A DNA stretch of 64,000 nt from Azolla caroliniana (lineage: Eukaryota; Plantae; Polypodiophyta), in contig JBHGNT010000017.1 in assembly GCA_043228905.1 (NCBI GenBank), forward strand, positions 5,208,001 through 5,272,000. Reading direction: 5' to 3'. The position numbers and the translations under genes are program-made. This document shows positions 4,264 to 46,100 of the stretch, in pieces. Position 1 is the stretch's first letter. Each line of letters starts with the position of its first letter. The notes beneath the pieces are model-generated. The model saw only the letters and a list, made by a program, of their open reading frames with translations, did no database searches and was not told where the DNA came from.

Positions 4264-4410
4264 CATGGATCTCGAGGTAGAACAGTTAGACGTGAAGACG
4301 ACGTTCCTCCACGGCGACTTTGAAGAGGAGATCTACATGCATCAACCAGAGGGATTTGTGAAGAAAGGGAAGGAGCACCTGGTTTGTCGGTTTAAGAAGA
4401 GTCTCTACGG

Positions 4411-4526
4411 TGTCACGATAATTCGCGAGTGCATGTTGAAAGGGGCGGGACCACGGGGGTCATGGACGAGGAAGAAAGGGATGCTAGGAAAACCAACTCC
4501 GGCCACGTACTAGGGGCAACCGAACA

Positions 4527-4558
<32 letters not shown>

Positions 4559-5125
4559 CATGCGCGCAACACTGACTCTTATGTACAAGAAACAAAGGAG
4601 GGGAGTTATGTACCCGACACCATCAGAGACACCATTATGCACAAACAGACATGAATATATATATATATATTAAGGGGAAGATACAACCCCGGCTTCGAGC
4701 TGGGCTACACTCAGAAGAAGAAGAAGAAGAACTTAACCCTAACAGAGCCTTGCCGCCATGGCTGCGGCGCCCAACTTCTCAAGAAGGAGAAGAAGAAGAA
4801 GACTACCAAGAAGTTACTAACCCTAGAAAAATTCTTGACAAAATGACCCTCGACCAAAATGGTATACCCTTATGACTAAAAAAAGGGCAACCCCTCTACA
4901 AGGGACCCTTCCTTCCTTTTATAGAACAAGGAGAGGGATACGTTACAATGTGGGATAAACCCTGATTTACATGGGATTCTCTGTCCTGACTTAACTCCTA
5001 CTCGGCACCATAAAGGTCACCCTATTATTGTGACATGTTTTTACAAGGATAAGTGCACATGATGCACTCCGCCGATTCCTCCAATATCTCACGGTTTCTC
5101 ACCGTAGCCCAAAATCTTCACGACA
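4411..5125 (-). mobile_element. Solo LTR of the F/G gypsy family (715 bp), 4-bp TSD ACGG
   Basis: TGTCACG...TCACGACA; ACGG at 4407-4410 and 5126-5129; removing it restores copia LYGLK. Confidence 0.9.
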
Positions 5126-6250
5126 ACGGTTTGAAGTAGGCTCCCCGGCAATGGTACCAGAAGTTCAACTCCTTCATGACTGATCAGGGGTACCACAAGA
5201 CGCAGGCCGATCATTGCGTATTTGTGAAGAAGTTCGAAGGTGGAGATTTCCTGATACTCCTCCTGTACGTGGACGATGTTGATCGTCGGACAAGACCAAG
5301 TCAAGATACAGATGCTAAAGAAGGCCCTGAACCAGACCTTCTGAATGAAAGACTTGGGTTCGGCAAGACAGATACTGGGGATGCATATCATCCGGGACCG
5401 GTCAACGAAGCAATTGTGGCTGTCACAGGAGAAGTATGTGACAAAGGTGCTTTACAATTCAACATGTCACACGCAAAACCGGTCAGATCGACACTCCCGA
5501 CAAACTGCAGGTTATCCGGTAAGCAAAGCCCGAAGACGAAGGCAGAGAAGGCAGATATGATGAAGATACCATATGCCTCTGCCATTGGGAGCTTAATGTA
5601 CGCAATGGTGTGTACCCAACCAGATATCCGATATCTAGTCGGTGTGGTGAGCCGGTTTATGAGCAATCCCGGAAAGGAGCACTGGAATGTGGTAAAATGG
5701 ATACTCTGGTACTTGAAAGGCACCTCAAGTATGTGTCTCCGATTCGGCTCCGGTAAACCCCAACTTGATGGTTTCACCGATCCAGATATGTCGGCTGATG
5801 CGGATACCAGCCAGTCAACATCGGGATATGTTATGACATATGTAGGGGGAGCTGTTTCGTGGCAGTCGAGGCTGCAGAAGACGGTTGTGTTGTCCACCAC
5901 GGAAGTGGAGTACATGGAAGCTATGGAAGCCAGCAAGGAAATACTATGGATGAAGGATTTCATCGGAGAGCTAGTGATCCGGCAAGAGGAATATCGGCTC
6001 TATTGCGACAGTAAGAGTGCCATCCACCTTGCAAAGAACGTTGCCTATCATTCCAGGACAAAGCACATGCAATGTAGGTACCACTGGATCCGGGAGCGAG
6101 TTGAAGATCTAGAGTTCGTGTTGATGAAGATCCACACGGAGGAGAACGAGTTCAATATGCTGACCAAAGTGTTGACACCCGACAACCTAGATGCATGCAG
6201 GAAGAGGATCGGATTGACGGGGCATCCGATTCCGAAGTGAAGGGGGAGTT

Positions 6251-6878
6251 TGTTAGGATTTTGGTCCCTCCGGATGGGATATAAGTACCCGGTAAGGAAA
6301 ACCCAGTGAGAACCGGATGACGAGTACCCAGTAAGGAAGGCCTGGTGAGAACCGGATGGTGAAAACCCAGCAAGAGCTGGATGATGTAGACCTAGTGAGG
6401 ATCGCTCACTGGATGAAGGGACATATTTATAAATATGTTTCTGAGAGCCCAATGGGGCTATATTTGTAAATAGCCCGAAAGTCATATTAGTATAAATATG
6501 ACCTAGGGCAAAACATGTTGTGCATGTTGGTCATTCTTTGTTGTCATATTGCTGTAACTGTTGTACAAAGACAGAGAGAGAGAGAGAGAGCGTGAGAGCA
6601 GCTACTAGCACTCTCTGTTGTAACCGCCGCCAGGCGAAGAGTGTGATCACGAGGTCGTTGCATGTGTGCCCCCTGTTGTATTCTTTGACATAGTGATAGT
6701 TTGAAGTCTGTGGGCTCCCGTGGTTTTTCCCTCTCAGGGTTTTCCACGTTATCATCTTGTGTACTCTTTTGTTCACAATGTGTGTGTGCATATACGTGTA
6801 TTTCTCCCTATTCCCATCTTTCTGTGGTTGATCCTAAGACTCGGTTGTGGCTGAGCAATATTCCGCATTTTCTCTACA
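6251..6878 (+). repeat. 3' LTR of copia J
   Basis: Starts TGTTAGGA right after the PPT and ends CTCTACA; shares family LTR motifs. Confidence 0.88.
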
Positions 6879-10078: not shown

Positions 10079-11058
10079 GTAGTTTGCATAGGTCATGATG
10101 TATCTCGATGTGGACGGGGTGGTATCTACATTAGCTGACATGTCTGAATCTGTAAAGCCTTCCAATAGGGGTTTACTTGAGCCGAATCGAAGGCACATGG
10201 TTGAGATGCCTTTCAGGTACCGCAGGATCCACATGACATCAGTCCAATGCTCTCTTCCCGGATTGCTCATGAACCGGATGACCACTCCAACTACATGTCT
10301 AATGTCGGGCTGGGTACACACCATTGCGTACATGAAGCTTCTGACTGTTGACGCATAAGGTATCTTCATCATATCAGCTTTCTCCGTCTTTGTTTTTAGA
10401 CTTTGCTTTCCAGACTACTTGCTGTTTTCTTAAAGTGTCGATCTGACCAGCTTCGCATCTGTCATGCTGAACCTTTGGAGCATCATTGTCATGTGCTTCT
10501 CTTGTGATAGCCACAATCACTTCTCGTCTGGTCCCGGACTATGTGCATCCCGAAGATCTGTCTCGCGAGACCCATATCTTTCATTGAGAAAGACTTGCTC
10601 AAGGTTTTCTTCATTATCCTGATTTTGATGTGATCCCGTCTGACAATTAGCATGTCGTCTACGTACAACAGGAGTATTAGGAAGTCTCCTCCATCGAACT
10701 TCTTCACAAACACACAGTGGTCGGCCTGCATCTTGTCGTATCCTTGGTCGGTCATGAAGGAGTTGAACTTTCGGTACCATTGCCAGGCAGCTTGCTTCAA
10801 TCCATATAAGCTCTACTTCAACCGACACACTGGGTTCTCCTTCCCTTTCTTGACGAATCCTTTTGGCTGCTGCATATAGATCTCCTCCTCAAGCTCACCG
10901 TGCAAGAATGTAGTCTTGACATCTAATTGTTCGACCTCGAGATCCATGCTTGCCACTAAGCTCAAAACCATCCAGATGGATGTCATCTTCACCATTGGGG
11001 CAATGATCTCGTCGAAATCCACTCCTTTCTTCTGCTGGAAGCTCTTCACCACAAGTGC
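10079..11058 (-). pseudogene. Second decayed Tork-like copia RT-RH fragment fused head-to-tail to the previous one
   Basis: VVKSFQQKKGVDFDE...LLYVDDML...YIMTYA then joins directly to the protease region of the next fragment. Confidence 0.85.
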
Positions 11059-12973
11059 ATGAAGACGTCGTCGCATCCGGTTATACTCGGGGAACCGTAC
11101 ATCACGGCAGCACGGATGGAGACAAAGGTGTTGGACAACGGTTCGGCGTATGCACGGGTCCAAAGCCAGGATGGGCGTCACTCGGTCCAGTTCCTAACGG
11201 TGCGACCGAACCATGAGCGTAATCGCGAGACCCTCGGTGGCGAAACCCGAGGGGATTTTTAGAGAGGGCTATCAAGGCGTGGGGCCACGATAGTCTGGAC
11301 ACCCCGGAAAAACCCCATAGATGAACTATAGGCAAAAAGACTTGTACAATAGGTAGAAAATTTTGGTTCACCGATAGCGGAGGTTGTACGATAGCTGGCG
11401 TAGTTGGCTGGGAAAAGAAGCGGGCGGAGGTGCGACTTCGGGCATGTGGAGTCCTCGGCCCAGAAGAGGAAATCAACGGAGTCGTGGAGGCAGTCTCTTT
11501 CGACGACACCTTAGGGAAGTTACGGGAGGTGTTCGGAGAAGGCCTTAATGAGGACCGGACAATTCCGGTATGTTCAGAAAAGATGTACGAAGTCATCGCC
11601 GACTTCGGTAATGGATTCGAGTCGGATTGGACGGCCCGAGTGGATACGAAGTACAAGATTGTGGACCGGAAGGTGAGGCCAGTCACGGCACCCTTGCCGG
11701 AGGGCAGCGAGTTACGGATAAAGGGGGTCGCGTCAGACCCGAGTTTACGAGATTCAGCCAACATAGGACACACGTTCACCGACATAACACTACGGGAGCT
11801 CAAGATCGGTGGGGGTGGCTTTCTACTGATGGCGGAAGAGAACCGGTTTCGGAGAATGCTCAGGAGGCACGGGAAGGCTTTCGCGTTCTCACCGGAGGAG
11901 ATCGGGTGCATAGACTCGACGGTTGTGGAACCAATGGTGATCTTCACGGTACCGCATGTGCTGTGAAATCTCAAACCAATTCCGGTACCCAGAGCTCACA
12001 TCCCGAAGCTAATGGAGCTGCTGAAACACAAGATGGAAATGGGCATCCTCGAACCATCAAATGCCCCATATTCGAATCGATGGTTTACAGTGCCAAAGAA
12101 GAACGACACTCTACGCTTCATACTGGACCTGCAGCCGGTTAACAAGGTTACCATTCGAAACGCAGGTATCAGACCGACCATTGATGAGTTCGCGGAGGCC
12201 TTCGCAAGGAGGTCGATCTACTCGGTCGGGGATTTGTACTCCAGGTACGATCAGTTCCAACTAGTCGTACAGAGCAGGGATGTCACGACGATGCGGACTC
12301 CTCTCAGCCTAGTTCAGATGTGTACCCTACCGCAAGGGGGAACGAACTCGGTGGCGAACATGGTGAATGTGATGAACAAGGTGTTGAGGGACTACATCCC
12401 GGACATCACCATCTCGTTTCTGGACGACATCCCGATCAAAGGATGTCTGGTGGAGGACAAAGACGAATCGATCGGGCCTGACGGTTGCCGAAGGTTCATG
12501 ACGGATCACATCCGCGACTGCGAGAAGGTGCTATAAAGACTCGAGAGCGTGTCGCTCACCTTCTCTAGAGAAAAGTCAGCCTTTGGACATCCGGAGATCT
12601 TGGTAGTCGGACACCTGTGCGGGCCTTACGGCCGAAAGCCGTCCCCGGCGAAGGTAGAAGCCATCTCCGCGATGAAGGACAATTGCGGATCGGTCACGGA
12701 GGTCTGAAGGATCCTTGAGGCATGTGTGTTCTATCACATTTGGATTCCGCACTATGCGCATGTTGCGGAACCGCTTTATGGGTTATTAAAGAAAGGGCGT
12801 CGGTTCGAATGGAGGACGGAGCACACGGAGTCGATCTGGAGACTGAAGGAGGCGCTCGCTGTGGCACCGGATCTCCGGAAAGCGGTTTACAGCAAGGAAG
12901 TTGCCATTTACGTGACGGTGGACACGAGCCTGACTAGGATCGGGTGGGTGATCAACCAGGAAGACGAGGACGG

Positions 12974-13502
12974 TGTCGCATTGTTACGCGCGTGCGTGTA
13001 GAAGGGGCGGGACCACGGGGGTCTTGGACTAGGGAGCAGACGAGAAAGAATAAGATATGTTTGGAAGTTTAGCTCAAGAGGAGAAGAAGAAAGAATAAGA
13101 TCACGACATAGAAGGAGAGATTGACGGAGGTAAGATACTCAACAAGATATATTAAAGCAAATGAATGATTACAACAATGGTGGCCACATGGGCCGCACCA
13201 AACGACTATGAGAAAACCCTAACTGAGGATGAATAAGGAAACCCTAAACGAAACCCTAACCCTAAAATGGTAAGAACTCTAGACTAAGTGGTATACCTTT
13301 CATACGCAAAATAGGCAACAACTTCATAAGTGACCCCTCCCTTCCTTTTATAGCCCAAGGAGGGAGGGACCTTACAATGTGGGATAAAATTTCCCCTCTT
13401 ATTTCTACACACCATTTCCTAGTATACATGTGCACATGTTGCACACCACCAACTTGCCCATTCCACCCCAGTTTCCGCCTATGGATGAAAATCTTCACGA
13501 CA
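12974..13502 (-). mobile_element. Solo LTR of the F/G gypsy family (529 bp), 4-bp TSD ACGG/ACAG
   Basis: TGTCGCA...TCACGACA; removing it restores DEDGIRFPI in the RNase H of F. Confidence 0.87.
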
Positions 13503-15338
13503 ACAGCATACGGTTCCCGATCTAGTTCGGGGCAAAGGTATTGAGCGAGCGGCAGCGAGGATACGCCCAAAATAAGCGCGAGCTATGGGGTATCGTTTCG
13601 GTAGTCAAGGCCGAGAAGGACTATCTGATCGGGACAGAAGTGATCATCGAGACGGACTGCCTATCGATTCTGGGTATGGTTTCAGGACCTGGCGATGCTT
13701 AGGTGGATTGCGTACATCGTCCCTAAACCCGGAGATACGACACATCTCTGGAAAGGATAACGCCATGGCCGATAGGCTTTCAAGGGCGCGGTTGAGCGAC
13801 GAGGACAACATGGTTTCGGAAAACGAAGCAGTCGGCGAGGACATCTTCGGGTCAGCTAACATAACAACAAGAAAGGGGAGCACTCCGGTGCTTAACGAAT
13901 TCGACGAGAGCATGTACGACGGGAAGTGGCTCCAGATCGGCGGGTTCCTGAAGACAATGATACCGGACACGGCGTGGATGAAGGAAGAGACCAACCGGAT
14001 TCGGAAGAAAGCGTACCGATTCTTCCTACGGGAAGGGAGCATATGGAAGCACCCAAAGAAGAGAAACGACATCCCGCTCCGAGTGGTGGCGAAGAAAGAG
14101 GAACAGGAAGAATTGCTAACGACATACCACGAGAGTCCCTAGGCCGGGCACTGTGGGACTTGGGCCACATTCTAGAAGCTAAAGGGGAAGTACTGGTGGT
14201 CGGGACTATACCGAGACGTGCATCGGTTCGTGACGACTTGCGAAAGCTGTCAGGTGCACTCCATAGTCCAACATCGGGACGAGCTTCACCCGACCTACCC
14301 TCTGACCGTCCACTTCAAGTGGATGATGGATCTCGTGACGATGTCGATGGGGGTAGGGCAGAAGCGGTATCTGGTGCTGGCTCAAGAGGACCTGACGAAC
14401 CAGGTGGAAGGCCGAGCATTGAAGAACAAAACAACCGCGGTCGTGTGCCAATTTCTGATCGAAGAAGTGGTATGTCGGTATGGGTGCGTAGGTAAGATCG
14501 TGGCCGACCGTGGAGAATTGGACGTGCAAGAGGCGGAAGAGTTGTTTGACCGGCTAGGGATTAAACTCTCGCTCACCACGGCATACAATCCGGAGGCTAA
14601 CAGGAAGGTGGAACGTGGACACGGGTCGATTGTCAAAGCGTTAGTATGGGCATGCGTCGGCCAAGTTGGGAACTGGCCGCGACTCTTACTCTATGGGTTG
14701 TGGGCGGACCGAACTACGCACAGTTCGATAACTGGGTTCATGTTGGCAGAGCTAATGTATGGGCAGAAGCCAGTCATGCCAACGGAGCAGACAATCTCCT
14801 CATGGGCCACGGTGGACTGGAAAGACGAGATGAGCCGGGAGGATCTGTTAGCGGTGCGGATTCGGCAACTAGAGCGAAGACCGGAGGACATGGACGGGGC
14901 CACGGAGAAGCTACGGGTGGCGAGGGTAAAGAACAAAGGACGGTTCAACCGGACTCACTGACTGAGACCGAAGAAGATCGAGGAAGGTGACTGGGTTCTA
15001 GTGTATGACAGCAGCCTCGACAACCAGCACCAGGCAATGCAGAAGTTTGCTAGAAGGTGGTTCGGGCCTTATGTGGTGACAAGCGCCAACAACAATGGAA
15101 CCTGCCATCTCACGGAGCTCGATGGGACAAGGATGGCGGTACTGGTGGCGGGGAAGAGGATCAAAGCATTCAAAAAGCAGCACGAGGCTGAACCGGACCC
15201 GGACGACCAGGATAGCAACAACGACCGGCTCGGAATGGATGTCGGTCCGCAAGACAAAGGATGAGCATCGGCCGGTCTTCTCCAGCAAGAGTCTAAATTT
15301 GGCGCATACCGGTGGATGCGCGGTTAGGTAGGGGCGGA

Positions 15339-16000
15339 TGTCATGGAGAAAACCGTCCCGAGGCGGAAATCGGGTATAACGTGCATAAACCGGCCCTTAC
15401 ACGTGGGCACAAGTTTTGTGGTATAGCACATAGAAAGGTACAAGTCAACTGAGGTGAAATCCTAGGTAGCACGCATTCATTAGGGAGAGAATTGAGGCGT
15501 ATCCCTATCCGAAAGGACCGGGAATAAACATGATGTAACGGGTGATAACGGCCTCCCTCCTTGGGCTATAAAAGAGAGGGAGAGGTATTCACCAAAGGGG
15601 ATCGCGTTTTGTAGAGGACGAACTGCTGCCGGACTGGAACCGAGCTCTTCTCCTCTGTCTTCTCCTTCGTCGTTCTGTGCAGGTTTCAGGAGGCTGACTC
15701 TGCTCCGCGAAACGCCCGAGTGCTTCCTGCAAGAGTCTCCTTTTCGCGTTCTGAGTGTGTGTGTGAGAGAAGGCGTCGGAGCCTATCACTCGCCGGTTGT
15801 AACTCCTTGACTTATATATACATTTACATTTGTTCTGTCTCTATTGTTCCGAGTTAGCGGCAACTCCTGTGAATGTGCGTGCTTGTGCGCGTGCGAAGTA
15901 CATCGGGAGTTTCCTTCCCCTCTTCTCATTCGGTTATTTCTCAGTCCAAGGCCCCCGTGATCCCGCCTCGTTCTCCACGCACACGCGTAACAACGCGACA
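15339..16000 (+). repeat. 3' LTR of element F (662 bp)
   Basis: TGTCATGG...CGCGACA; TATAAAA near 15567; conserved family end motif CCCCCGTG(A/G)TCCCG. Confidence 0.88.
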
Positions 16001-18179
16001 ACGGCCTCGTGGTTTTCACACCGATACGGCCATGTTATGTGTACCGATTTATGCACCCAGTCTACGCAGTGGGTTACGCATCGTATTACACACGAATGTT
16101 GAGCTTGTTTCTCAACAACGACTCTCACAAGACACTTAATTTTTTTGGATAAATATAGTGGCCATGATAGTCCCCAACGAGAGTAAGTTGTCAGGTAACT
16201 CATGTATATTTGAAAGAACCAAGAGACGAGTGGTTCTTCACATCATCTGTTATTTGGTAGAAATAACGAAGAGATTTAGTGAAGAGGATCATATGGATAT
16301 TATATGTAGAGTGTTACACCATCAACGTTTGAATGAAGACATGGGGAGAATAAAATTTAGGGACCAATGGGTTTCAGAAGAGATTGTAGAGTCTATGAAG
16401 TCATCCCTAGACTTGGTGAAAGGTGTAGAGAGCATAGACAAACTTGCTGCAAAGAGGGCAGCCCTAGACATGGTTGTGAACGGTGCGAGAGAAAAAAAAA
16501 AATAGTGATACTAAAGTTGCCTTAGCCCTAGGTATTCAAAGAAGGAACATGAGGAAACATCATCGAAATATACACTCAAGCCAATTCAAGAGGTTGGGGT
16601 TGTGATGTAGACAATGATGTGATGCCTTGTCTCGATAGATTATTGAGAAAGTGGATTAGTTTTCGGCAAAAAATACGTGTGTCTCACCAATAAGAAGGAC
16701 GTGTGTAGACAACGAATAAGTCGGGGTAAGTACCAGATTCACCCTAGACACTTCTTGGAGATGACTGAGGTATTCCATTTTTTTATATCAATTCACATTC
16801 CATAAATTTTTGTTTTGACCAAGTGTATATTAATGTTTGCTATATATTGGTTGATGTAGGTTGAATTGTACATGAACTTTAAAGACCAACATCGAAGCAT
16901 GACTATTGAATTTTGTAAGTTCCAAGGTTTGAAACCATATTATGTTAGAAAATTAACTGAGAGAAATACATGTTGTTGTGTGTACCACGTGAAGATGAAC
17001 ATGTTAAGGTTTGGAGCGAATGCAATGCGTACTGATTCTAAGGGTATACACGGGGAATTATGTGTCTGCACTTGTGAGGTTTGTAGACCAAATGGGGAGG
17101 ATAATAGGTGTAATGCACGACAAATGACTTATGCATCCGTTTCTGAGTTATGGAGGTCTTGTGTTTGTGAAAAAGAACCATCTTGTGAGTGGCATTGTCG
17201 TACATGTCTTTTAAGAACATGTAAGGTTTGTCCGCTACCATTATTTTGTAGACAGGAGCTTGATTTGACAAACAGTCATATTGTGAAATGGAAATATTTA
17301 GAGTATGTGACTGAAAATATTGGCAAGGGACTTGTTAGTAAGCGTATCAACGAAGTATATAAGGAGACATGTATTGCTACCCTTGTCTCCGAATTTAAGA
17401 AACAACTTGGGGAGTTCATTCCACATAACTTCCGGAGTTATTGGCAAAATTCATAGTTCAAGGAATTTATGAATAACTTGCCACAAGGTGTCATCGTATC
17501 CGTTATTGACTTTGCAGAAAACTATACATTTAAAGTTAAAAATGAGGTTCAATCAATGCATTGGTACAATGATCAATGTATGATACTTGTACATATTTGG
17601 TATTGGAGATAAGATGGTGAGTTACATAAGAAATCAATATTTTACATTTCAGATGATAAAAAGCATGATACACTATTTGTTCAACATTGTTTTAAGCTTC
17701 ACCATGCAAATTTATTGTCTCTAACTGCCATTGGGTTTAGCTTTAACCGCCATTGGGTTTGGTCTAATGGTGTTGCTTTGTAGTTTAAGGCACCACGATC
17801 ATTCTACTTTATCACCAGGTAATTTTTAATCCATATATTTAGTACTTATAATGCAATGTGGAAGGAAGTAATTCTTGTGTAAGTGCTCATCCTTCATGTG
17901 AATCAGTACTACTTGTTGGGTTCAAAGTTTACATCTTAATATTGTACTCCCTATTGCGTTTGTAGTTATTGTCTACACACTCACTATTTTAGTATTCTTG
18001 CAAGACAAGTGGGTATTCTCCTATCATGTCACCTCCAACTTAGTTTTGTCTGCCCTTCTGCATCAAAAAACTCTTTTCAGCTACATAAAAAACTATTGAT
18101 AGACAACACAGTACTATTCAAACGGATGCATGCATACTAATTATGCTTGTAACTATGTTAAGTGTTCTTGATTGATCAC

Positions 18180-18740
18180 ATAGTACTATCCTTTCACGTG
18201 AATCCGTGTTTATTATCTTTTAATCCATGTAGAGTGTTCTCCATAGATACATTGTATTGTGTTGTATGTTGTATCTGTACTAAATCAATAGAGTGTTGAA
18301 GGATGTAAGTATTTGTTTTGTATCATAGTATTGTTCGTTCTTGAGAGTTTGTACTAATTATCTTTTAATCCATGTTGAGAGTTCTCCATGAGCACATTGT
18401 ATTGTATTGTGTGTTGTATATGTACTAAATCAGTATTAATGGATGTAAAGTACTCGTCATCAACAACATAGTATTGTCCAATATTGAAGAGTTTGTACTA
18501 ATTATCTTTTAATACATGTAGAGTGTTCTCCATGAACACATTGTACTATGCTTTGTGTTGTATACGTACTAAATTAGTATTAATGGATGTTAAGTATTGT
18601 TGGTTGACAACATAGTACTATTTATCTTTTAATCGGTTTAGAGTGTTCTCCATGGATACATTGTACTATTCTTTGTTTTGTATTTGTACTAAATCAGTAT
18701 TAATGGATATATAGTACTCTCGATTGACAACATAGTACTA
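18180..18740. repeat. Degenerate AT-rich tandem repeat (~120-145 bp units, ~4 copies) in the transposase intron
   Basis: Recurring TTATCTTTTAATCCATGTAGAGTGTTCTCCAT-like motif near 18215, 18361, 18504 and 18625. Confidence 0.8.
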
Positions 18741-18835
18741 ATATTTGTTGGAAACCTGGGATACAAAAGCAGTTACTTCTCCCTATTCAACATTCGTATG
18801 CAATGGAACTACTTCAGGTCTGGACATGGAAAATG

Positions 18836-19407
18836 AGAGCATCATGACGCGGGGGCTGTGATCAAACATGCTCTTACAAGTGAGCAGTTGGATACTAATG
18901 ATGCTAAGTTACAAAATGCACATGATATTGTGGAGTGGCTAACATGGAAGATGTCAAATGATGGTAAGAACAGATTGTTTGTTGAGGTTCACGCTGATGA
19001 GGTCGATAGAACTAAATCATATGGTTGTAAAACCATGAAAGGCACGCAACACCCATTGTGTATTAGGGTTTACCCGTAAGGATACAACACAATTGTACTC
19101 CGTACTTTATCATGCTTTTGTAGAGCATGATGACGCGGGGGCTGTGATCAAACGTGCTCTTACAAGTGAGCAATTGGATAGTAATGATGCTAAGTTACAA
19201 AATGCACATGATGTTGTGGAGTGGCTAACATGGAAGATGTCAAATGATGGTAAGAACATATTGTTTGTTGAGGTTTGCGCTAATGAGGTCGATAGAACTA
19301 AATCATATGGTTGTAAAACCGTGAAAGGTGCGCAACACCCATTGTGTATTAGGGTTTAGCCATAAGGACACAACACAATTGTACTCCGTACTTTATCATG
19401 CTTTTGT
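18836..19407 (+). repeat. 286-bp tandem duplication of a transposase exon segment
   Basis: Units start at 18836 and 19122; near-identical translations (AVIKxALTSEQLD...). Confidence 0.92.
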
Positions 19408-20289
19408 TCCATGTGTATAGATGAAGCTTGGGATGAAGGCATCAACCTATCAATTGTGAAGCCCTAGAAGCTGCAGAAGCTTGAGCTTGAACGACAAGAT
19501 GATATTGAAGAGAATGCACAATCAAATGATATTGTATACTACAACCAACGTCAAGACTTCGCAGTTTTATTGGAAGTGGGAGATCATTTTGCAGTGCTCA
19601 AATCTCCTCAGAATGAAGATTTAGAAGACTACTACATTGTGGTGTGCAAGCAAGGGAAGACATTATTGAAAGAAGTGGTGAGGGATGGCCGGGGCCACAT
19701 GTTCAACGTTCGTGAGTCTGTCATGTATGGAAACTATTACGCAAAGTTACCGCAGTGCAAGAACACATATGCATTACTAAAAGATGCACCCGCCGCATTA
19801 ATCTACGTTGCTGCCATTATTGGGATCAAGTTCAATATGACTCAAGCAAAGCACAAGCTTAAGGGATATAACACTGTCTACAAGGTCCCCCAAGAGGTTC
19901 ATGAGCATATATTGGGGGAGGTCTCTCTGTTTAATGCTTGAAAGGTGCCCTATTAATACATTGTAGTTGGCAATTGAAAAACATCCTCTTGTAGTTTACT
20001 ATTTGTATATTGTATCTAGATCGGTTATTAATTTTGATGATTGACAAGTGAATCAATATATTTCATCTTTCTTCTAAAGTGTTTAGAATAATTATTGAGC
20101 TTGTTTTGTAAGTGTTCAAGTTAATTATAGAGTTGCTTGTTTCTAGGGTTAAGGGTGTGAAGTCTTTATTTAAGTATCAATACTTAGTAGCATTAATATG
20201 GCCCTAGCTTATTCAAGTATCAATACCAGTAGTCTAATCCCTATTGTGTTAAGTCTTTATTCAACTCTGACTATGTCCCAAACTTATTA

Positions 20290-20920: not shown

Positions 20921-20971
20921 ACAAACTTTTCAATTACAAACTTCTCAATAGAAAGACAATCAGGCACCATT

Positions 20972-22862: not shown

Positions 22863-22900
22863 AAAAAACCTTCAACGTTAGTACCGTGATATAAAAAATA

Positions 22901-24043: not shown

Positions 24044-24657
24044 TTGAGCACCGAAATTGAGCGAACAACGGACCTACGAAAGGTCCTTGACGAACAGATC
24101 CTCGACAGCAAGGTGGAGTTGTTGTTACGGGAGGTACTCGGGATTTCCAAGAAGGAGTTCCACGACTGCATTGTAGACTTGGTAAAGAGTAACTGGCTCT
24201 CGACGGAACCGGAGCCGGATAAGCCTTCGGAGGTGCGGACGACACGCCTAGAAGACATGGCCCTAGAGGACGAGTTGGCGGACACGCACTATTCGAAGTT
24301 GCATTGGGTCAGAGCCACTACGGAGACCCCTGTTCGGATCAGGGACGTTCCGGAGACGGTAGTTGCATTGATAGACCATGGATCCGAAATCAACTTGATG
24401 TTTATGGATTTCTATAAGAAAGGGAAATGGCCGATCAACACCAAGCACGTGTGGAAGATACACGCGGTGACGCGCGCTACGGACGAACTGCATGGTGCGT
24501 GCCCGAATGTGTGCGTAAAGATCGGCGACATCGAGATAGATCAACACTTCTCTGTGCAGGAGACATCCTCGCACCCGGTGATACTCGGCGAACTGTACAT
24601 TACGGCGGCACGTATGGAAACGAAGGTGCTTGACAACGGTTCGGCATACGCGCGCGT
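24044..24657 (+). pseudogene. gag-end/protease fragment of the F/G gypsy family
   Basis: ALIDHGSEINL...HPVILGE; colinear with ORF 43534-44217. Confidence 0.85.
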
Positions 24658-25406
24658 TGTCGAGGTTATTCTCGCGGATGCGTAGAAGTCGGGGACCACG
24701 GGGGTCTTGAACCAAGGAATCAAGAAAGCGAGGAGGGGGGAGTTTAGAGACTGCGTAGGTCTTGGGACCACGGGAAAACAGGTAAGGATAGCACTCGGGA
24801 GAGAGTAAGAGAGTCGTGCGTGGATGCAGACACGGTCAAAGACACTGGGCAAAGGCACTGGGCACGACGTGTGTTAGGAGAAAAAGGGTTTCTATTAAAC
24901 AAAGCAAGTGCGTGGTGTTGCAGGTGAATACAACCGGATCAGAGCCGGCGATGGAGCGTAGAGCTTCGTAAAAGCCAGTTACAAAGAGACGTCGGTGCGC
25001 AGAAGGTCGATCCCTAGGTTGGGAGCACTTGGGCGTTTGACGCGAGCAGGGGAAGCGCCTTCTTCCGCGATTAGTTGTCGATCCTTCTCTGTATATCCTT
25101 TCCTCTAGATGGCATCCCGAAGACAGTCAAAGGTCGCCCCTTTTATAGCACAAGGAGCAACCGTTACAAGCATTCATGACCCGTCACTTTTCATCCTAGA
25201 TTTTCTCCCATGATTTACTCTCCTCGTAACTCTCCCTACTTATGCGATGTCTATATCTTCTTTAATGCTCTAACTACCTAGTACCCCTCGTTATACTCAT
25301 GCCTAGTACTTGTCCTATTTAATTCCCTCGAGGTGTGCACTCGTGTACACTGGTGTCCCTGTGCGTTTCACCTTGTTTCCGCTTATGGCCTAGAATCTTC
25401 ACGACA
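24658..25406 (-). repeat. 3' LTR of element G (749 bp)
   Basis: Minus strand TGTCGTGAAGATTC...CCTCGACA; family end motif. Confidence 0.87.
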
Positions 25407-28400
25407 TCCACCCCCACTAAACCACACATCCTCCGGTATGTGCCGGATTGCGAATTTAGTGAGGGATTCCGGGCCATCGGTTACTCGTCATCCTCTCCTG
25501 AACTGGCACTTTCAGCTCCCGGGTTCAGTTCTGCTTTGTTCCATCTCTTGAAGGCTTTTATCCGCTTCCTAGCCACCGGAGTCGTTATCCGCGTCCCGTC
25601 GAGCTCTGCGAGATGATACGTCGCGTTGTTGTTGGCGCTATTTACCATGTACAGTCCGAACCAATGCTTCGCAAACTTGCGAGTAGACCTATGCTAGTTG
25701 TCAAGGCTGATGTCGTAGACTAATAGCCAATCACCTTTCTCGATCATCCTTGGCCGAACCGGGCTTTGTTTCGGATCTACGCTTCTTTCAACTTTGTCAT
25801 GGCTTGTTCTATGTCTTCCAGTCGTCGCTCGAGTTGCCGGATTCATGCCGCTAGAAGCTCTTCTCTGCTCATTTCATTAGACCAATCGATTGTCGTCCAC
25901 GAGGCAATCGTTCTCTCAACTCGCATGATGGGTTTTTGTTCGTACATTAGTTCTGCCGGCATGTACCCTATCACCGAACTGTGGGTGGTCCTGTTCGCCC
26001 ACAACGCGTATAGAGGCAACCTCGACCAGTTGCCGACTCGACCTTCGCACAATGATCGGACCGTGGCCCCATTCAATCTTTCCATTCGCCTCGGGGTTGT
26101 ACGACGTTGTGAGGGACAGTTTTACGCCTAACCAATCGAATAGTTCCTCAGCCTCTTCCGCGTCTAGCTCTCCTCGGTCAGCCACGATTTTCCCCATGCA
26201 CCCATATCGGCATATGACATCCTCGATCAAAAACTTACATACTGCCGTGGTGGTCTTGTTCGTTAGTGCTCGTTCCTCTACCTGGTTGGTTAGGTCCTCT
26301 CTAGCTAGCACTAGGTATCGCTTCTGCCCTTCACCCATGGGCATCATAACTAAGTCAACCATCCACTTGAAGTGCACGGTCGGAGGATAAGTCGGGTGTA
26401 GTTCGTCGCGGTGCCGAACCACCGAGTGCATCTGGCAGCTTTCGCATGTAGACACGAAGTCGTGCACGCTCTTGTACATGCTTGGCCACTAGTATTTTTC
26501 CTTTAACTTCTCGAATGTAGCCCATGTACCCTGGTGTCCAGACCAAGGGCTCTCGTGGAACTCCGATATTAGCTTATGTTGGTCATCCATTCGCGCTATA
26601 ACCTGGAGCGGCGCGTCGTTTCACCTTTTTGGGACCCTCCAGATTTTCCTGTTCCGTAGGAAATATCTGTACGCCTTCTTCCGGAGCTGTCCGGCCTCCT
26701 CCCTAGTCATTGAGACGTCCTTCGTCATTGTCTTCAGAAACTTCCCGATTAGAAGCCATTCTCCGTCGTAGTCGTCTTCGTCGAATTCATTCACTGGCAG
26801 AGTGCTTCGTCTTTTTAAATTCATCCTCGCTAATTTGAAGAAGTCTGCGCCGACTTCTTCGTTCTCTGATACCATGCTGTCGTTGTCCTCGAATCTTGCT
26901 CTTTACCCGAGATGTGTCGTATCTCCGGGTTCAGGGACGATGTACGCAATCCACCTGAGCATGGCCAGGTCAGGGGTCGCGCATCCGGAGACCATACCAA
27001 GAATCGGCAGGCAGTCCGTTTCTATAATTACTTCCGCCCTGATTAAGTATTCTTTGTCGACCTTAACCGCCGAAACGATACCCCACAGCTCGCGCTTGAC
27101 TTGGGCGTATCCTCGCTGTCGTTCACTTAGTACCTTCGCACCGAACCGGATAGGGAAGTGCGTGCCGTCTTTGTCCTCTTGATTCACAACCCATCCGATC
27201 CTAGTCGGGCTAGTGTCCACTGTGATGTAGACCGGGCTAGTGTCCATTCGAATTTCCTGCTCTTCTTTAGCAAGTTGTAGAGCGGTTCGGCGACGTGCGC
27301 ATAGTGAGGGATCCATATGTGGTACAAGGCACATGCCCCTAAGAATCACCAGACTTCTGTGACGGATCCGCACTCCTCCCTCATTGCCGAGATGGCCTCT
27401 ACCTTGGTCGGTGATGGCTTCCGGCCGTACGACCCACATAGGTGGCCAACCACTAATATCTCTTGTTTCCCGAAGGCCGACTTCTCTCCCGAGAAGGTAA
27501 GTTGCGCGCCTTCGAGCCTTTGTAGTATCTTTTCGCAATCGGCAATGTGGTCCATGACAAACCTTCGGCACCCGTCCATGCTGATCGACTCATCCTTGGT
27601 GTCCTCCGGACACCCCTTGATAGGGATGTCGTCCAGGAAAGGCATGGTGATGTCCGGAATGCAATCCCTCAGAAATCTGTGCATAGCATTCACCATGTGT
27701 GCAACCAAGTTGGTTCCTCCTTGTGGTAAGGTGCACATCCGAACTAGACCGAGAGGGGTTCGCATCATGTTGGAATTAGTCGTATCCTGAGTAAAGGTCT
27801 CAGAACAAGTATATGGACCTTCCAGCGAAGGCTTCCGCGAACTCATCGATCGACGGTCCAACTCCCATATTGCGGATGGTCACTTTGTTGACCGGTTGTA
27901 AGTCCTGGATGACCCGCAACGTACCGTTCTTCTTCGGTACCGTAAACCACCGGTTAGAATAGGGGGCACTCGGCAGTTCGAGGATGCCCAACTCTACTTT
28001 CTGTTTAAGGAGCTCCATCAACATCGGCATGTGAGCCCTCGGTACTTGGATTGGCTTGAGGCTCCATGGTATGTGCGGTACCGTAAATATTACCATTGGC
28101 TCGACGATGGTCGGGTCGACGCACCCGATCTCTCCTGGTGAGAATGCGAAGGCCTTTCCGTGCCTTTCGAGCATCCTTCTGAACCGATCCTCTTCCACCG
28201 GTAGCAGGAAACCACCCCACTGATCTTCAGTTCTCGTAGCGTTTTCTCGGTGAAACGGTGCCCTATGCCGGCCGGATCCCGCAAGCTGGGGTCGGTAGCG
28301 ACCCCCTTTATTCGTTCCTAGCTACCCTCCGGCAAGGGAGCCGTGATGGGCTTCACCTTCCGGTCCACAATCTTGTATTTCGTGTCTACTCGGGCAATCC

Positions 28401-28685
28401 GATGCACCCGGGTTCCTCTTTCAAAGTCCACAATGACTTCATACATGTTGATCGAGTTGACCGGTATGACTCGGTCTTCGCTTATACCTCCTTCGATTAC
28501 CTTCCCAATTTCACCCAGGGTGTCATCGAACGAGACCGCCTCCACGGCTTCCCCAATTCCTTCGTCGTGGCTCAAGGATCCACACGCCTTTAAGCGTATG
28601 TCGGCCCATTTTCTTTCTCGGCCACTGATGCTGACTATGGTACATCCTCCATTGTCAGAGAACAAAACTTTCCTACCTATTTTAC

Positions 28686-28755
28686 AGGTGTGGGGAGCTT
28701 TCCGGTTATTCAGACTATCATGGCCCCACACCTTGATAGCCCTTTTTAAAAATCC
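28686..28755 (-). promoter_or_regulatory. Putative -1 frameshift signal between PR and RT in G (G GAU UUU plus pseudoknot)
   Basis: Stem1 GGCTATCA/TGATAGTC; loop AGGTGTGGGG pairs with downstream CCCCACACCT; homologous site in F at 11253-11320. Confidence 0.75.
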
Positions 28756-31700
28756 GCCTTGTTGTTGGCCGGTCAGAAGTGGAAGGACAAGTGGGAAGGC
28801 GGAATCGGATAGAATAATATAAAGTAAATATTAGTAGAATTATTATTCGGAGGGACGGATCCGGTACAGTTGTACCGATCCGGATCCGGACCGATTCGGA
28901 TGCCGGTTGCCTAAGCGCACCATTTTGTAATCTTGCCGGATGCCTATAAAAGGATCCGATGAATTGTAATGAGTTTTTACGGAAGTAATACAAGCTTAAC
29001 TATTTGTGATTATTTTAGTGTCTGTATTGTCTTACCGTCTGTGCTAATTGTAACTATCTTACGCGTGTACTCTAACATCCAATCCTCACCACCCCCTTTG
29101 GAGAAGTGTCGGAAAGACACTTGTGTTGGGGCTAGTCCGGCCAGCAATACAACACTATTTTGGTGACCACGATTCCTGCAAAGTGCAAAGAACAACTGGG
29201 GGATGGATGTCTAGACCGAACGGCGACCACATCACCAAACGAGGGAGACGATACGCCGAACGACAGCAACGACGGGAAGCCTTGCAGCAAGCCGCCGAAG
29301 AGATCCGGCAAGATCGGTCATTCTCTAGAACTCTTCGGAGAGTCGCAGAAGAAGCACTGCAATTCCGGGGTCTGCAATTCCCTGACGAAGGCAGTAGCAT
29401 AACGAGCCTACAGGAGACGGAAACGATACTACAGACGCTCGCTGGGGGCGACGGAGACGCGGAAGCATTTGCAACACTCGAGTCGGAATCAGAAAGCGAC
29501 GAAAGCGTTGTGTCCCGATATAAAAGCAGCCACGACACACCGAACGACCCGATGGAAAGAGAGTCGGACGACTCATCGACACCGGAGCCAACGGAAGAAA
29601 TAACCTTGGAGTTCGGTGACCGGCAATCTCCGAGAGAGGCTGACAGGACACCGACACCACCCGTGGAAAAACCAAAGGAGCAGACACCGACGCCAACCGC
29701 AGAGAAAGAGCAGAGAGAGCAGGAGAGTCAGTTGGACGACACGATGCCGTATCCATACCCAAAGTACCGGGATGAGCCCGACGCGGAGGCTCATGTCTAC
29801 GCATTCCTCCAAACATGGGAAGCCAACCATGTTTCTCAAAGATTGACGGAGGCCGAAGCCGAACGATCCAAAGTCTCCGAATTCGGCATGACATTAGAAG
29901 GACCGGCGGCCCGATGGCATGCAAAGCACTTACCGGGCAGCTTTGCCACATTCGACGCCTTGAAGGCCAAATTCCTGCGGCTTTTTCACAGACAAGTTGA
30001 ACAAAGGGAATTGGTCAGTCAATTCTATACTACCCGGCAGGAAGAGCATGAAACCGTGCCACAATTCATAATTCGGTTCCAGACCTTGCACACCCAACTG
30101 ACAAGAGCACCACCCGAGGACGAAGCCAAGGTAGTCTTTTTGGCCGCGTTAAAGGAGCCACTTCGAACAATGTGCGGAGTCCTTGACTTCTGTACCAGCA
30201 CAATGGACCAAGTCATCGATTGGGTATTGGAAATGGACAAAACTAGCTCCTTCATGTCAATGGGGATGCTACACCGGGCACTCCCGAAGGAGGAAGATCT
30301 GAGGTTCCGGCAAGCCTTACAATGCACGACGTGCCTAAATTCGGGCCACTCGACGGTGGACTGCAATCTGCGCACACAATGTATGATCTGCAACTCTCAA
30401 GCACATACAACGGACCGTTGCGAGTATAACTTGTTAAATCGGAAGGCGGCACCGGTCCGACACATAGAACCGCGCAACAATCAGGACCCGGAAGAGGATC
30501 GATTCCGGAGAGATGACCGCAACCAACGTGAACGTGGTGACAGATACACTGACCGACAACGCGATAACTATGACCGAGAGGAAAAACGCAGAGATAACTA
30601 TCCCAGGGACCGGTATGACCGAGATGACTCCCCGGAGTATGATCGACGCAAAGACGAGAGACGCCATGGGAACCGAAACTTCCGACGAAATCAAAAGCGA
30701 GGATTTTTCCAAAGAGAGGAACGCCGGGAAGCAGCAAGGAATGACAACCTAGCATCGGCACCGTATAACCGGAAAGCCGAAGACAACCGCCTGAGTATAC
30801 CCACCTACCAAACCGGGGACAAAGGGGAAGGAAGTAACAACCACAAGGTGTATTGTTACTACTGCCGTAAAGAGGGCCATTATAGTAACCAATGCCCAAG
30901 CAAGACAAATGAAAAACAATCGGCAGTCAACATGGTTACTGCCGAAGTAATTGAGGTGCAGCAAGTCACAACCCGGTCGAAAGGGAAGGCTGCCGAATGG
31001 GAAGCCCAAGAGGCAATCAGGAAGCAAGCGGCGCAATGGATCGAGAAGGCCAATGAACAAAATGCGGCGGAGATAAGAGACCAGAATACGCCAAGGGAGG
31101 AAGAAATCACACAGCCAGTAGAAAACCCGACGTGGCAAGCACTCTAGGACTGTCAGATCGTGCTGCCATTAGCACGACTACTTCAGTTGGTGCCTCGGTT
31201 CACAGCAGATCTACAGGCAGCGGTTACCAAACCAAAGCCGACGCCAGCACCGGCATTCTTCTCCAACCCGGAAGAAGGACCAACTATGGTCGATACAAGC
31301 AGCCCGGCAATCACGGCAATCGTGAAAGGGAAGGAAATCGCCGGAACGATTATTGACGGGGGATACGGAGTAAACGTCATCAGCTGGCAAACATGCGATA
31401 ACCTAGGCATCCGGGAATGGGAACCATGTCCTTTTTGGTTACACATGGAGGATACCAGCTCAGTCCGACCGGCCGGGCTTATCCGGGACCTGGAAGTCGC
31501 TATCGGAGGCCACGTATTCCGTATATCGGCCGTCATGCTTCATCTGAACGTACAAGGCGCGTATCCTCTGCTGCTGGGATGACCATGGCTACGAACGGCC
31601 CATATTAAGCAGAATTGGGAAAAGAACATCATCACATTCCGGCGGGGAAAAACAAAGGTACGCGTGGCGATGCAACCACGGGTAATCGCCAGTAAAGAGG

Positions 31701-43160: not shown

Positions 43161-46100
43161 GGCCGTGTGTGGGTTCAAAGTGCAAAGCACTTTCCCACGG
43201 GCGTGCCATGTGTTGGCCGGTCAGAAGTGGAAGGACAAGTGGGAAGGCGGAATCGGATAGAATAATATAAAGTAAATATTAGTAGAATTATTATTCGGAG
43301 GGACGGATCCGGTACAGTTGTACCAATCCGGATCCGGACCGATTCGGATGCCGGTTGCCTAAGCGCACCATTTTGTAATCTTGTCGGATGCCTATAAAAG
43401 GATCCGATGAATTGTAATGAGTTTTTACGGAAGTAATACAAGCTTAACTATTTGTGATTATTTTAGTGTCTGTATTGTCTTACCGTCTGTGCTAATTGTA
43501 ACTATCTTACGCGTGTACTCTAACATGCAATCCTCACCACCCCCTTTGGAGAAGTGTTGGAAAGACTTCTGTGTTGGGGCTAGTCCGGCCAGCAATACAA
43601 CACTTGTTATCATTTCTGAGGGTGCCCCGATTTTGTTCGTGGTTCTTCCGAACGGTCAAAAATTGAACAGAGTGACGGCCGTCCTGACTTTTTACCCTCG
43701 CGTAGGCTGAACCATTGTCCAACACTTTTGTTTCCATTCTAGCCGCCGTGATGTATGGTTCCCCAAGGATGACCGGGTGAGAGGACGTCTCTTGCACGAA
43801 AAAGTGTTGGTTTATGTCAACGTCCCCGACGCTCACCCTGACGTTCGGGCAAGCCCCGTGTAGCTCTTCCGTGGCTCTTGTAGCCGCGCGTATCTTCCAC
43901 CCATGTTTGGTATTGATCGGCCAATTCCCCTTTTTGTAGAAGTCCATGGACATTAGGTTAATTTCCAACCTGTGGTCGATTAACGCCACCACCGGTTCCT
44001 TGACATTCCCGATACGAACCGGGGTTTCTGTAGTAGCTCTTGCCCAGTCCGGTTTGGCGTAGTTGCTCTCCGCGAGCTCGTCTTCCATGGCTATCTCATC
44101 GAGGAGTGTCGCCCTTACCTCAATCGGCTTCTCAGGCTCCGGTTCCGTTGCGAGAAGCTTTCTCTTCATGATTTCCACGATGTTGTCGTGGAACTCCCTT
44201 CTTGCTATGCCGAGCACTTCCCTAAGCGTGAGTTCTATGCGACTGTCGAGAACTTGCTCCTCTAGAACATTTTATAGGTTCATTGTTTTCTCTATCTCCG
44301 AGCTTAAGCAGAAGCTCGGAATCCTGCCCTTCTCCTTCTCCTGGAATCCGGTCCGAGCGGCATCATGCTTTTTGGTTGCGCTTCGTGTATCATGCCTCCC
44401 CGAGGGGCCGCTCCCCCGGTTTTTCCCGCTCGCCTTTCGTCGATCAGGGCTTCGCAGTTTCTGCACCCGGCCTCAACAAAGCCAGTGCTTTCTTCAACGG
44501 GGTCGCTCCACCCGGTAACTTCGCGAACACGTTCTTCTGCGTGCTCCGCTTCCTCCTTCTACACCCTTCCTCTGGACAAAGTCTCAAGAACGATCGGCCA
44601 GAACCCAGATTTGGAATCAGGTTTGTTCGTCTTCTCCCCTATGCATATGCAAGCCGAAGGCGAATAGTGGACGGCTTCGACGTGCCGGGCCACGGCTTCT
44701 TCCATTTGCCTCTTCATGCCCCCTCGTCTGAAATTCGTGTCGAGCAATCTTCGCTTGTCGCTCGCATGTACCCTGCCGTTCGAAAGGTAAACTACATTAC
44801 TCCTGAGCGCTTCTCTGAAGTCAGCGTATTCTCTCTAGGCATGTCCGGTGGCGTCGCACCATACGCACCTCTGATTGGCCGGTGGTCGCCGGTCACGCGG
44901 CTGACCTTCGTCGCTTCGTTGGGCCTGAGGGGTCACGCACCATCCTTGCCAGTTCTTCTAGTCTGGCGCCACCTGCAGGTCCCGCGACTATGTTCGCCGG
45001 GGGTGGGCCTAGATCGAGCCACCTCCTCGTTTCTTCCATTCGGGTCGGCGTTGGTTCGGCCTTGATTTCGACAGCCGGTCCGACCGACGAGGACTCCTTT
45101 TCTTTCCAGTCTCGCCATTTGTCAATCCTACTGCATACTTCCTTGATGATCACCCAATCAGTCGTGAGGCCTCGGTTGGTTTCCAAAAGAAGACCCACAT
45201 TTTCCCGGACACGTGAGTCGAATGAAGTGACAACAAATAGAACCTTGCTCGTTTCGAGCACAGTTCGGTCCAACCTAGAGAGTCGTGCAAACCTTGACTC
45301 GAACTCCTGGAGGAGCGCAGAAGCATTCTGACCCTTGTTGGGGCTGTTGACCCAGTCCATAAAATCCTTTCTCGATAGCCAGAGTGAATCATCATAGTTG
45401 TACCTCTCGAGAACTTCCTCTGCGAACTCCGCCCAATCGTGACAACCCGCTTGTATCTTGACCATCTCTGTATGGATGTGTGGTGTTATGACCCGGGGAA
45501 ACCCCGCTAGCCATCTATCTTCGGGTATGTTCGTCATCTACATTTCAGATTTGTAGGTCTCTACGTAACACGTGGCGTCCTTTCCGCCGAACCGGCCTAT
45601 CTTGCCAACTGTTGCCTCTATGGCCCGGAGAGTTCAGACCGAAGAGGCCTGGATCGGAAAGGAACGTCGGCGATCACGACAAGTGAAGAAGAAATTATGC
45701 TCATCACGGAGGAGAATGACTTAAATCTTGTCAATGACGAGACAATGTGAGTTGTCGATTCCGTAGCGTCAGTCCACCTGACACCGAATCGGAAATGCTT
45801 CTCATCCTACACAACCGGTGATCATGGTTGTGTCCGGATGGGGAATGATGATACATGCCGAATTGTCAGCATAGGAGATGTGTTGATGACGACATCAACC
45901 GGATCCAAGTTGTTGCTGAAGGATGTCTGACACGTTCCGGAGCTAGATGATGAAGGCTACAAGGGTAGCATCCGGAACACAGTCATGAAATTCAGCAAGG
46001 GAAGCTTGATTGTGGCCCGAGCCCGGAAGGTCAAGATATTGTACCTGATGCATGCCCGGATATGCCAAGAAGAAGTGAACGTGGCATCCGGCACTGCTGG

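What the first reader, a model, noticed from the sequence alone, without database searches (positions are those of the whole stretch)
4407..5129. F/G gypsy family makes 4-bp TSDs centred on CpG
Seen: solo LTR 4411-5125 is flanked by ACGG/ACGG and solo LTR 12974-13502 by ACGG/ACAG; only a 4-bp duplication restores the host frames (LYGLK; DEDGIRFP). The single surviving flanks of F (ACGG, 16001-16004) and G (GCGT, 24654-24657) also read N-CG-N. Every other LTR element here with both flanks has an unrelated 5-bp TSD (AAATA, CTTGT, CGATA, GGTTC, CTGAC, GGACT, ATCGG). Established: plant LTR retrotransposons usually give 5-bp TSDs with little sequence preference; CG-rich 4-bp targets are known from Drosophila ZAM and Tirant. 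Inference: the integrase is sequence-selective or mCpG-selective, which would steer a chromodomain-less element into CpG-rich transposon DNA. The sample is only four sites.
Basis: partly seen in the sequence, partly recalled or inferred. Interest (0 to 1): 0.75.

Follow-up and report, generated by a model that had tools for sequence, protein, structure and literature searches.

The report
Phygy-type retrotransposon inserts at CpG
This jumping-gene family, likely from a fern, almost always lands on a CG pair and duplicates four bases there, a habit already published for the moss lineage Phygy to which it likely belongs; its integrase likely reads the sequence itself, and whether the CG must be methylated is untested.

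Summary
L1 (4411-5125) is flanked by ACGG/ACGG and uninterrupted paralogues hold ACGG once; L2 by ACGG/ACAG; F and G flanks read N-CG-N; the seven other elements have 5-bp duplications. Beyond the window, 56 of 65 distinct LTR 3' junctions from metagenome contigs have CG at positions 2-3 (background 0.04). Seven more are TG/CA/TA, the same decay rate as the LTR's own terminal CpG, so original targets were close to all CpG. 9 of 11 5' junctions mirror this. The symmetric preference is C-[A>C>G]CG[T>G>C]-G. It is not new: Neumann et al. 2019 list Phygy as '4 bp (100%) (NCGN)'. The family lacks a chromodomain and extra RNase H, is 59-70% identical in the protease to Physcomitrium proteins and groups with them. 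The host looks like a fern. Most likely a PFV-like intasome bends the target at the CG step and reads bases directly. Methyl-CpG dependence is not excluded but has no support here; flanks are not CpG-rich.

The parts
4407..4410 (.). Left copy of 4-bp target duplication ACGG (CCGT in element orientation)
4411..5125 (-). Solo LTR L1 (715 bp) of the F/G family, inserted in a copia reverse transcriptase region
   Evidence: shares terminal boxes with L2, F, G; 74-81% to LTRs in L012, L022, L050
5126..5129 (.). Right copy of the duplication, ACGG
4264..6777 (+). Copia host of L1 (interrupted at 4411-5125); uninterrupted paralogues at 35720-37505 and 54579-56368
11055..15338 (+). Element F internal part: end of protease, RT, RNase H (interrupted by L2), integrase, polypurine tract; 5' part missing; several stops and frameshifts
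12970..12973 (.). Left copy of L2 duplication, ACGG
12974..13502 (-). Solo LTR L2 (529 bp), inserted in F's RNase H
13503..13506 (.). Right copy of L2 duplication, ACAG (CG to CA decay inferred)
14176..15264 (+). F integrase: zinc finger, DDE core with D-R-G-E, GPY motif, short acidic tail, no chromodomain
15339..16000 (+). F 3' LTR (662 bp)
16001..16004 (.). Single surviving flank of F, ACGG
24044..24657 (+). Fragment H: gag end and protease of another F/G-family copy, host of G; its last four bases GCGT (24654-24657) are G's surviving flank
24658..25406 (-). G 3' LTR (749 bp)
25407..28762 (-). G polypurine tract, integrase, RNase H, RT; cut by another element at 28763-43602 (5-bp CTTGT duplication)
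43603..45621 (-). G protease and gag (weak DUF4100 hit); 5' LTR missing, joined to copia DNA

Best explanation
F/G is a non-chromoviral Ty3/gypsy family, likely of the Phygy lineage and likely in a fern, that inserts with a 4-bp duplication centred on a CpG, likely because its integrase itself selects that sequence. Shown: 4-bp duplication, CG at its centre, symmetric preference C-[A>C>G]-C-G-[T>G>C]-G with T almost absent at the first and A absent at the last position, no chromodomain, relationship to Physcomitrium proteins. Inferred: the intasome cuts the two strands four bases apart, which needs a sharp bend at the central step; a pyrimidine-purine step is favoured for this in retroviruses with 4-bp duplications, and here base contacts narrow it to CG alone. 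Avoidance of T at the joining position is the general intasome rule. A glutamate at the position of PFV Ala188 (67 of 70 relatives) is a candidate contact for the C just outside the duplication (speculative). After insertion the duplicated CpGs are methylated and decay to TG/CA (inferred), which gives ACAG at L2 and the non-CG junctions.
For: Junctions: of 120 loci from the pattern scan, 27 were chance bacterial-like matches and 93 family; 94 motif hits gave 16 followed by a primer-binding site, 6 set aside without a clean end, 72 target-flanked, 65 distinct; CG 56, TG 2, CA 2, TA 3, AG 1, AA 1. CG at offset 2 in 56, at offsets 1, 3, 5 in 0; p = 3.5e-66 for 55 of 65 under the first end rule, background 0.041. 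Decay 7 of 63 in targets against 6 of 63 in the LTR's terminal CpG, Fisher p = 1. 5' junctions: 11 of 22 candidates passed an LTR-similarity filter; 9 CG, 1 CA, 1 TG at -3,-2, and C just outside in 8 of 11; mirror-image placement fits only a 4-bp stagger. Base 5' of CG, both strands pooled: A 62, C 30, G 19, T 1 of 112 (T expected 0.33, p = 2e-18; A expected 0.24, p = 7e-13); G just outside in 26 of 56 (p = 9e-5). Such sub-preferences are not explained by methylation alone. Phygy: 186 elements, 4 bp (100%), NCGN. Physcomitrium proteins match F/G/H protease at 59-70% and hit none of the window's other gypsy elements; tree clade 97/91 with Physcomitrium, Riccia, Adiantum. Model pLDDT 83, best matches PFV intasomes and Ty3; D71-R-G-E74 aligns with PFV D-Q-G-A. 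Central YR preference and T0/A+3 avoidance in 4-bp retroviruses. Purified ZAM integrase binds CGCGCg.
Against: No biochemical test; sequence data cannot tell CpG from methyl-CpG. Only two true duplication pairs exist (L1 perfect, L2 3 of 4). The four apparent solo LTRs in the metagenome contigs have mismatched flanks (3, 3, 3 and 1 of 4), probably chimeric assembly or inter-element recombination; the 4-bp register still fits best or ties. Retroviral 4-bp integrases favour any YR step only weakly, so near-absolute CG needs an extra determinant, which could be the methyl group: methylation created strong sites for an avian retroviral integrase in vitro (as reported by a review). Phygy membership rests on the gag-protease region, not on REXdb's RT-RH-INT set.
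Confidence: 0.7

Rival explanations
1. The integrase needs or strongly prefers methylated CpG, so DNA methylation replaces the chromodomain as the signal that sends the element to silenced DNA.
For: CG-only centre is stricter than bendability predicts; duplicated CpGs decay like methylated sites; no chromodomain; methylation makes strong sites for an avian retroviral integrase; Phygy nested in Tcn1 is common in Physcomitrium; all three identifiable hosts in the window are retrotransposons.
Against: Decay shows methylation after insertion only. Strong A-over-C/G and outside C/G preferences show direct sequence readout anyway. CG-centred 4-bp targets occur for ZAM, whose purified integrase binds the motif (Drosophila's lack of CpG methylation is recalled) and for Ginger1. 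No methyl-binding domain in the integrase by Pfam or fold search. One site lies in a U1/U2 snRNA gene array and one about 2.8 kb from a transporter gene.
Confidence: 0.2
2. A host factor or chromatin state brings the intasome to CpG-rich transposon DNA, or selection keeps such insertions, and the CG centre is a by-product.
For: Slightly higher CG frequency near sites (0.039-0.042) than beyond 500 bp (0.035); 17 of 65 flanks hit a window transposon or family protein, 7 of them the family itself.
Against: Regional effects cannot fix CG at one offset in 56 of 65 with 0 at neighbouring offsets; many flanks are AT-rich and CpG-poor.
Confidence: 0.07
3. The pattern is a boundary artefact: NCGN belongs to the LTR end, or the duplication is really 5 bp.
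For: LTR ends are themselves CG-rich; four apparent solo LTRs have unmatched flanks.
Against: The same ends are followed by the primer-binding site in 16 cases and preceded by the polypurine tract in 14, with no NCGN; uninterrupted paralogues hold ACGG once; the 533-base joint; positions 1 and 4 vary freely among sites.
Confidence: 0.01

Closest known systems
Phygy lineage of non-chromoviral Ty3/gypsy elements (Neumann et al. 2019, PMC6317226; passages and Additional file 5 seen)
   Same: 4-bp NCGN duplication, no chromodomain, no extra RNase H, polyprotein fills nearly the whole internal part, one conserved primer-binding site, close protein similarity to Physcomitrium sequences
   Different: Defined there as specific to Physcomitrella patens; here a fern-like host (ferns and a liverwort are reported to hold Phygy: PMC13477047, PMC12885004, passages). 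Estimated length about 7.1 kb against 7.7-10.0 kb. The extended consensus and the decay-corrected near-100% CpG are measured here.
Ginger1 DNA transposons (Bao et al. 2010, PMC2836005; passages)
   Same: Gypsy-type integrase with GPY motif; 4-bp duplication CCGG (75%) or CCGT/ACGG (24%)
   Different: Cut-and-paste element with inverted repeats and no RT; prefers C, not A, before the CG
ZAM errantivirus of Drosophila (PMC2527525; abstract)
   Same: LTR element whose integrase targets a CG-rich motif (CGCGCg) and binds it directly
   Different: Insect lineage with a longer CG run; relationship to F/G not tested
Prototype foamy virus and gammaretroviral intasomes (PMC4422553; abstract, sections 6 and 14)
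   Same: 4-bp stagger, central pyrimidine-purine step, T avoided at first and A at last position; closest solved folds
   Different: Only a weak YR bias there; small neutral residue where F/G has Glu
Selgy and TatI lineages (PMC6317226, Additional file 5)
   Same: 4-bp duplications in non-seed plants; TatI also uses tRNA-Trp
   Different: No NCGN listed; Selgy uses tRNA-Ala and is about 5 kb; TatI has an extra RNase H, absent here

Membership tests
Phygy | Ty3/gypsy order PR-RT-RH-INT without chromodomain | tested here: met
   no chromo hit; tail after the last conserved integrase motif 24 residues in L064 and P0001, mostly 13-62 in relatives, low-confidence in the model
Phygy | No extra (archaeal-type) RNase H | tested here: met
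   One RNase H in P0001, P0002, P0004, P0108, P0025; a weak RVT_3 hit in P0025 overlaps that same domain
Phygy | 4-bp target duplication | tested here: met
Phygy | NCGN target preference | tested here: met
   56 of 65 3' and 9 of 11 5' junctions, plus 4 of 4 window sites
Phygy | Primer-binding site for tRNA-Trp | tested here: inconclusive
   16 LTR ends are followed by TGGTGAACCCGACGTGA or a close variant. That it matches plant tRNA-Trp is recalled; searches found no tRNA or paper to confirm. F and G themselves lack the 5' end.
Phygy | Polyprotein spans nearly the whole internal region, no extra ORF | tested here: met
   Integrase ends about 75 bases before the 3' LTR in F and G; gag starts shortly after the primer-binding site in L002, L073, L077, L095
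Phygy | Length 7.7-10.0 kb | tested here: inconclusive
   No whole copy; G adds up to about 7.1 kb if the missing 5' part is like its relatives'
Phygy | Clusters with Physcomitrium non-chromoviral elements (proxy: gag end and protease) | tested here: met
   59-70% identity in protease; clade 97/91 with 11 Physcomitrium rows, 72 of 120 sequences kept by a length filter, midpoint root, long outgroup branches. That these proteins are Phygy is inferred: they are not Tcn1-type.
Phygy | Placement in the REXdb RT-RH-INT tree | not testable with these tools
   Additional files 1 and 3 of PMC6317226 too large to read; the Physcomitrium proteins found end near the start of RT
Selgy | tRNA-Ala primer-binding site, about 5 kb | tested here: inconclusive
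   G exceeds 6.1 kb without its 5' LTR, near the top of Selgy's 4.4-6.7 kb; primer identity is recalled only; no Selaginella protein among hits
Tat (TatI) | Extra RNase H domain | tested here: not met
Chromoviruses (Tcn1, Galadriel) | Chromodomain at integrase end | tested here: not met
Ginger1 | Terminal inverted repeats, no reverse transcriptase | tested here: not met
   LTRs, primer-binding site, polypurine tract and RT present

The most novel reading that the evidence does not exclude
Phygy-type integrases are direct readers of methyl-CpG: a conserved core (Glu at the PFV Ala188 position) lets a chromodomain-less element land only on CpGs that the host has already methylated, from mosses and liverworts to ferns, so the host's silencing mark is the element's homing signal.
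Probability: 0.2. Interest if true: 0.75.

Novelty: new member of a known kind. Interest (0 to 1): 0.27.

Why it matters
The motif itself is in print for Phygy, so the finding mainly shows that the trait is kept in a fern-like host and refines it (near-total CpG use, a six-base symmetric preference). My searches found no paper that tests its mechanism. Sequence-specific LTR integrases are rare in plants, and intact natural integrases exist among relatives (P0001), so the CpG versus methyl-CpG question can be tested directly. If methylation is read, it would be a new way for a retrotransposon to find silenced DNA without a chromodomain.

Tried and rejected
No whole genome is held, so no genome-wide count. 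Viral contigs held no relative and no tRNA match. The ESM Atlas returned nothing for two queries. Laying contigs on the L2 end gave only small consensus rows (2-7 contigs each; X2 begins CCGG, rows that run through AC continue with G, one X1 row begins CCCC): in line with the motif but too thin to count. A loose 5'-end pattern gave 22 candidates, 11 dropped by a similarity filter that also dropped two likely true ends (L003 CCGT, L050 CCGG). Six 3' ends were set aside; three of them end CGATA and are followed by ACGT, ACAA, TTGT, which would make 57 of 68. Two flanks flagged as own-family (L011, L042) are the window's other gypsy type. DUF4100 hits in G and H are below Pfam's cut-off and no paper names that domain. 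Troyka and GingerRoot papers were checked and do not apply. PMC7466625 passages give no duplication data. Kitamura 1992 is not held. Flank CpG content cannot decide methylation, and short-read contigs favour low-copy flanks.

Full report
Observation. The window is a nest of LTR retrotransposons. Solo LTR L1 (4411-5125) starts TG, ends CA and has ACGG on both sides. Aligning each flank on its own to uninterrupted copia paralogues shows a 4-base overlap: ACGG stands once at 35863, 54722 and 7861 (minus strand), with two more diverged paralogues reading ACAA and ATGG. L2 (12974-13502) has ACGG/ACAG and sits in the RNase H of element F; contigs from two runs join 12969 to 13503, skipping 529+4 bases, while more diverged copies give other joints. 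F (plus strand) ends at 16000 before ACGG; G (minus strand) ends at 24658 beside GCGT, inside a fragment H of the same family. All 7 of the 7 five-base duplications listed for other elements are present.

More sites. No genome is held. I scanned metagenome contigs for a 19-base box that lies about 35 bases inside the LTR 3' end. Of 120 loci, 27 were chance matches and 93 family loci from one series of assemblies, about 70-88% identical to the window's elements where they align. The 94 motif hits split into 16 followed by a primer-binding site, 6 without a clean end (set aside) and 72 target-flanked, 65 after removing near-duplicates. The centre of the 4-mer is CG in 56, TG 2, CA 2, TA 3, AG 1, AA 1; CG occurs at offset 2 in 56 and at offsets 1, 3 and 5 in none, against a background of 0.041. 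The 7 of 63 decayed centres equal the 6 of 63 decayed CpGs in the LTR's own end (Fisher p = 1), so the original targets were close to all CpG. At 5' ends, 11 of 22 candidates passed a similarity filter; 9 have CG, 1 CA, 1 TG at -3,-2. The mirror placement fits only a 4-base stagger. Against: four apparent solo LTRs in these contigs have unmatched flanks (3, 3, 3, 1 of 4), probably chimeric joins or recombinants, so true pairs remain the two in the window.

Finer preference. Pooled over both strands the base 5' of the CG is A 62, C 30, G 19, T 1 of 112. The base just outside is G in 26 of 56 3' flanks and C in 8 of 11 5' flanks. The best site is therefore the palindrome C-ACGT-G.

What the family is. 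F's integrase has relatives at up to 85% in metagenomes and 42-65% in Riccia sorocarpa, with one in Adiantum. There is no chromodomain and no second RNase H. A search with the gag-protease region of a Riccia relative returned 14 Physcomitrium patens proteins among 111 hits; they match the protease of F, G and H at 59-70% and hit none of the window's other gypsy elements. A tree of 72 of 120 sequences puts G and H in a clade (97/91) with Physcomitrium, most Riccia and Adiantum rows (midpoint root, one region only). A zinc-transporter gene on one family locus is closest to Adiantum (78%; two longer models score higher at 61-62%), so the host of the loci, and by similarity the window's, is likely a fern.

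What is known. Neumann et al. 2019 (PMC6317226; passages and Additional file 5 seen, files 1 and 3 unreadable) state that Phygy elements prefer NCGN and list 186 elements with 4 bp (100%) (NCGN), tRNA-Trp primer and no extra domain. Jedlicka et al. 2019 (PMC6911290, passages) also find 4-bp duplications commonest in Phygy. Phygy is reported from ferns (PMC13477047, passage) and a liverwort (PMC12885004, passages). The 16 primer-binding sites here are uniform; their assignment to tRNA-Trp is recalled, not confirmed. Ginger1 transposons make CCGG or CCGT/ACGG duplications (PMC2836005, passages); ZAM integrase binds CGCGCg (PMC2527525, abstract). Searches for NCGN, Phygy, CpG-targeting integrases and fern Phygy found no test of the mechanism.

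Mechanism. A model of the integrase core and C-terminal domain from L064 (70 sequences, pLDDT 83) matches PFV and Ty3 intasome chains best. In retroviruses with 4-bp duplications a flexible pyrimidine-purine step is favoured at the centre, T is avoided at the first and A at the last position, and the residue at PFV Ala188 sets preferences just outside the cut (PMC4422553, abstract and sections 6, 14). The family shows the same T/A avoidance, and has Glu at that position in 67 of 70 sequences. I infer direct readout by the intasome, narrowed from any YR step to CG (0.7). Methyl-CpG dependence remains possible (0.2): a review reports that methylation made strong sites for an avian retroviral integrase (PMC11054761, passage; original not held). 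The data here do not favour it: flanks are not CpG-rich (0.039-0.042 near, 0.035 far, 0.054 in the window; 17 of 62 with o/e under 0.6) and 17 of 65 hit a known transposon of the window or family, a lower bound biased by short-read assembly.

Verdict. A real, strongly supported feature, but the published hallmark of Phygy seen in a new, fern-like member. Interest 0.27; the open part is whether the CpG must be methylated.

Noticed in passing
L007, L033, L040, L057, L059: One family LTR end (target CCGT) is carried inside a tandem array of U1 and U2 snRNA genes with a unit of about 3 kb; counted once.
   Followed up: partly
L012, L016, L049, L058, L078: Elements with L2-type LTRs whose 1-3 kb upstream of the polypurine tract has no pol similarity: likely non-autonomous partners that use the same integrase and keep the NCGN target.
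   Followed up: partly
P0092 (residues 1747-1789): A distant relative (42% in integrase) carries a PHD finger after the integrase, a possible alternative chromatin reader.
   Followed up: no
L002, L030, L091, L095 and other 5' LTR ends: The primer-binding site is separated from the LTR by 3-5 bases (TCT 5, TCTT 6, TATT 5, TAAAT 1).
   Followed up: no
window 12974, 24658; L080, L090, L100, L028: Self-insertions, some into the CG-rich end of the family's own LTR; 7 to 10 of 65 flanks are family DNA. No proper background was available.
   Followed up: partly
window 51105-56480 and 32273-37595: Two copia copies 94% alike; the first has identical LTRs and one unbroken 1370-residue frame, so it is very young.
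   Followed up: no
window 28763-43602: Gypsy element with 98% identical 394-bp LTRs, a nested copia, and an 808-residue frame (40734-43160) with no Pfam hit.
   Followed up: no
window 16001-22900: AT-rich stretch with tandem repeats and frames without Pfam hits, repeated in the sequenced runs at its start; host of F, identity unknown.
   Followed up: no
whole window: CpG o/e is 0.92 and TpA 0.74: little CpG depletion for a transposon nest.
   Followed up: no
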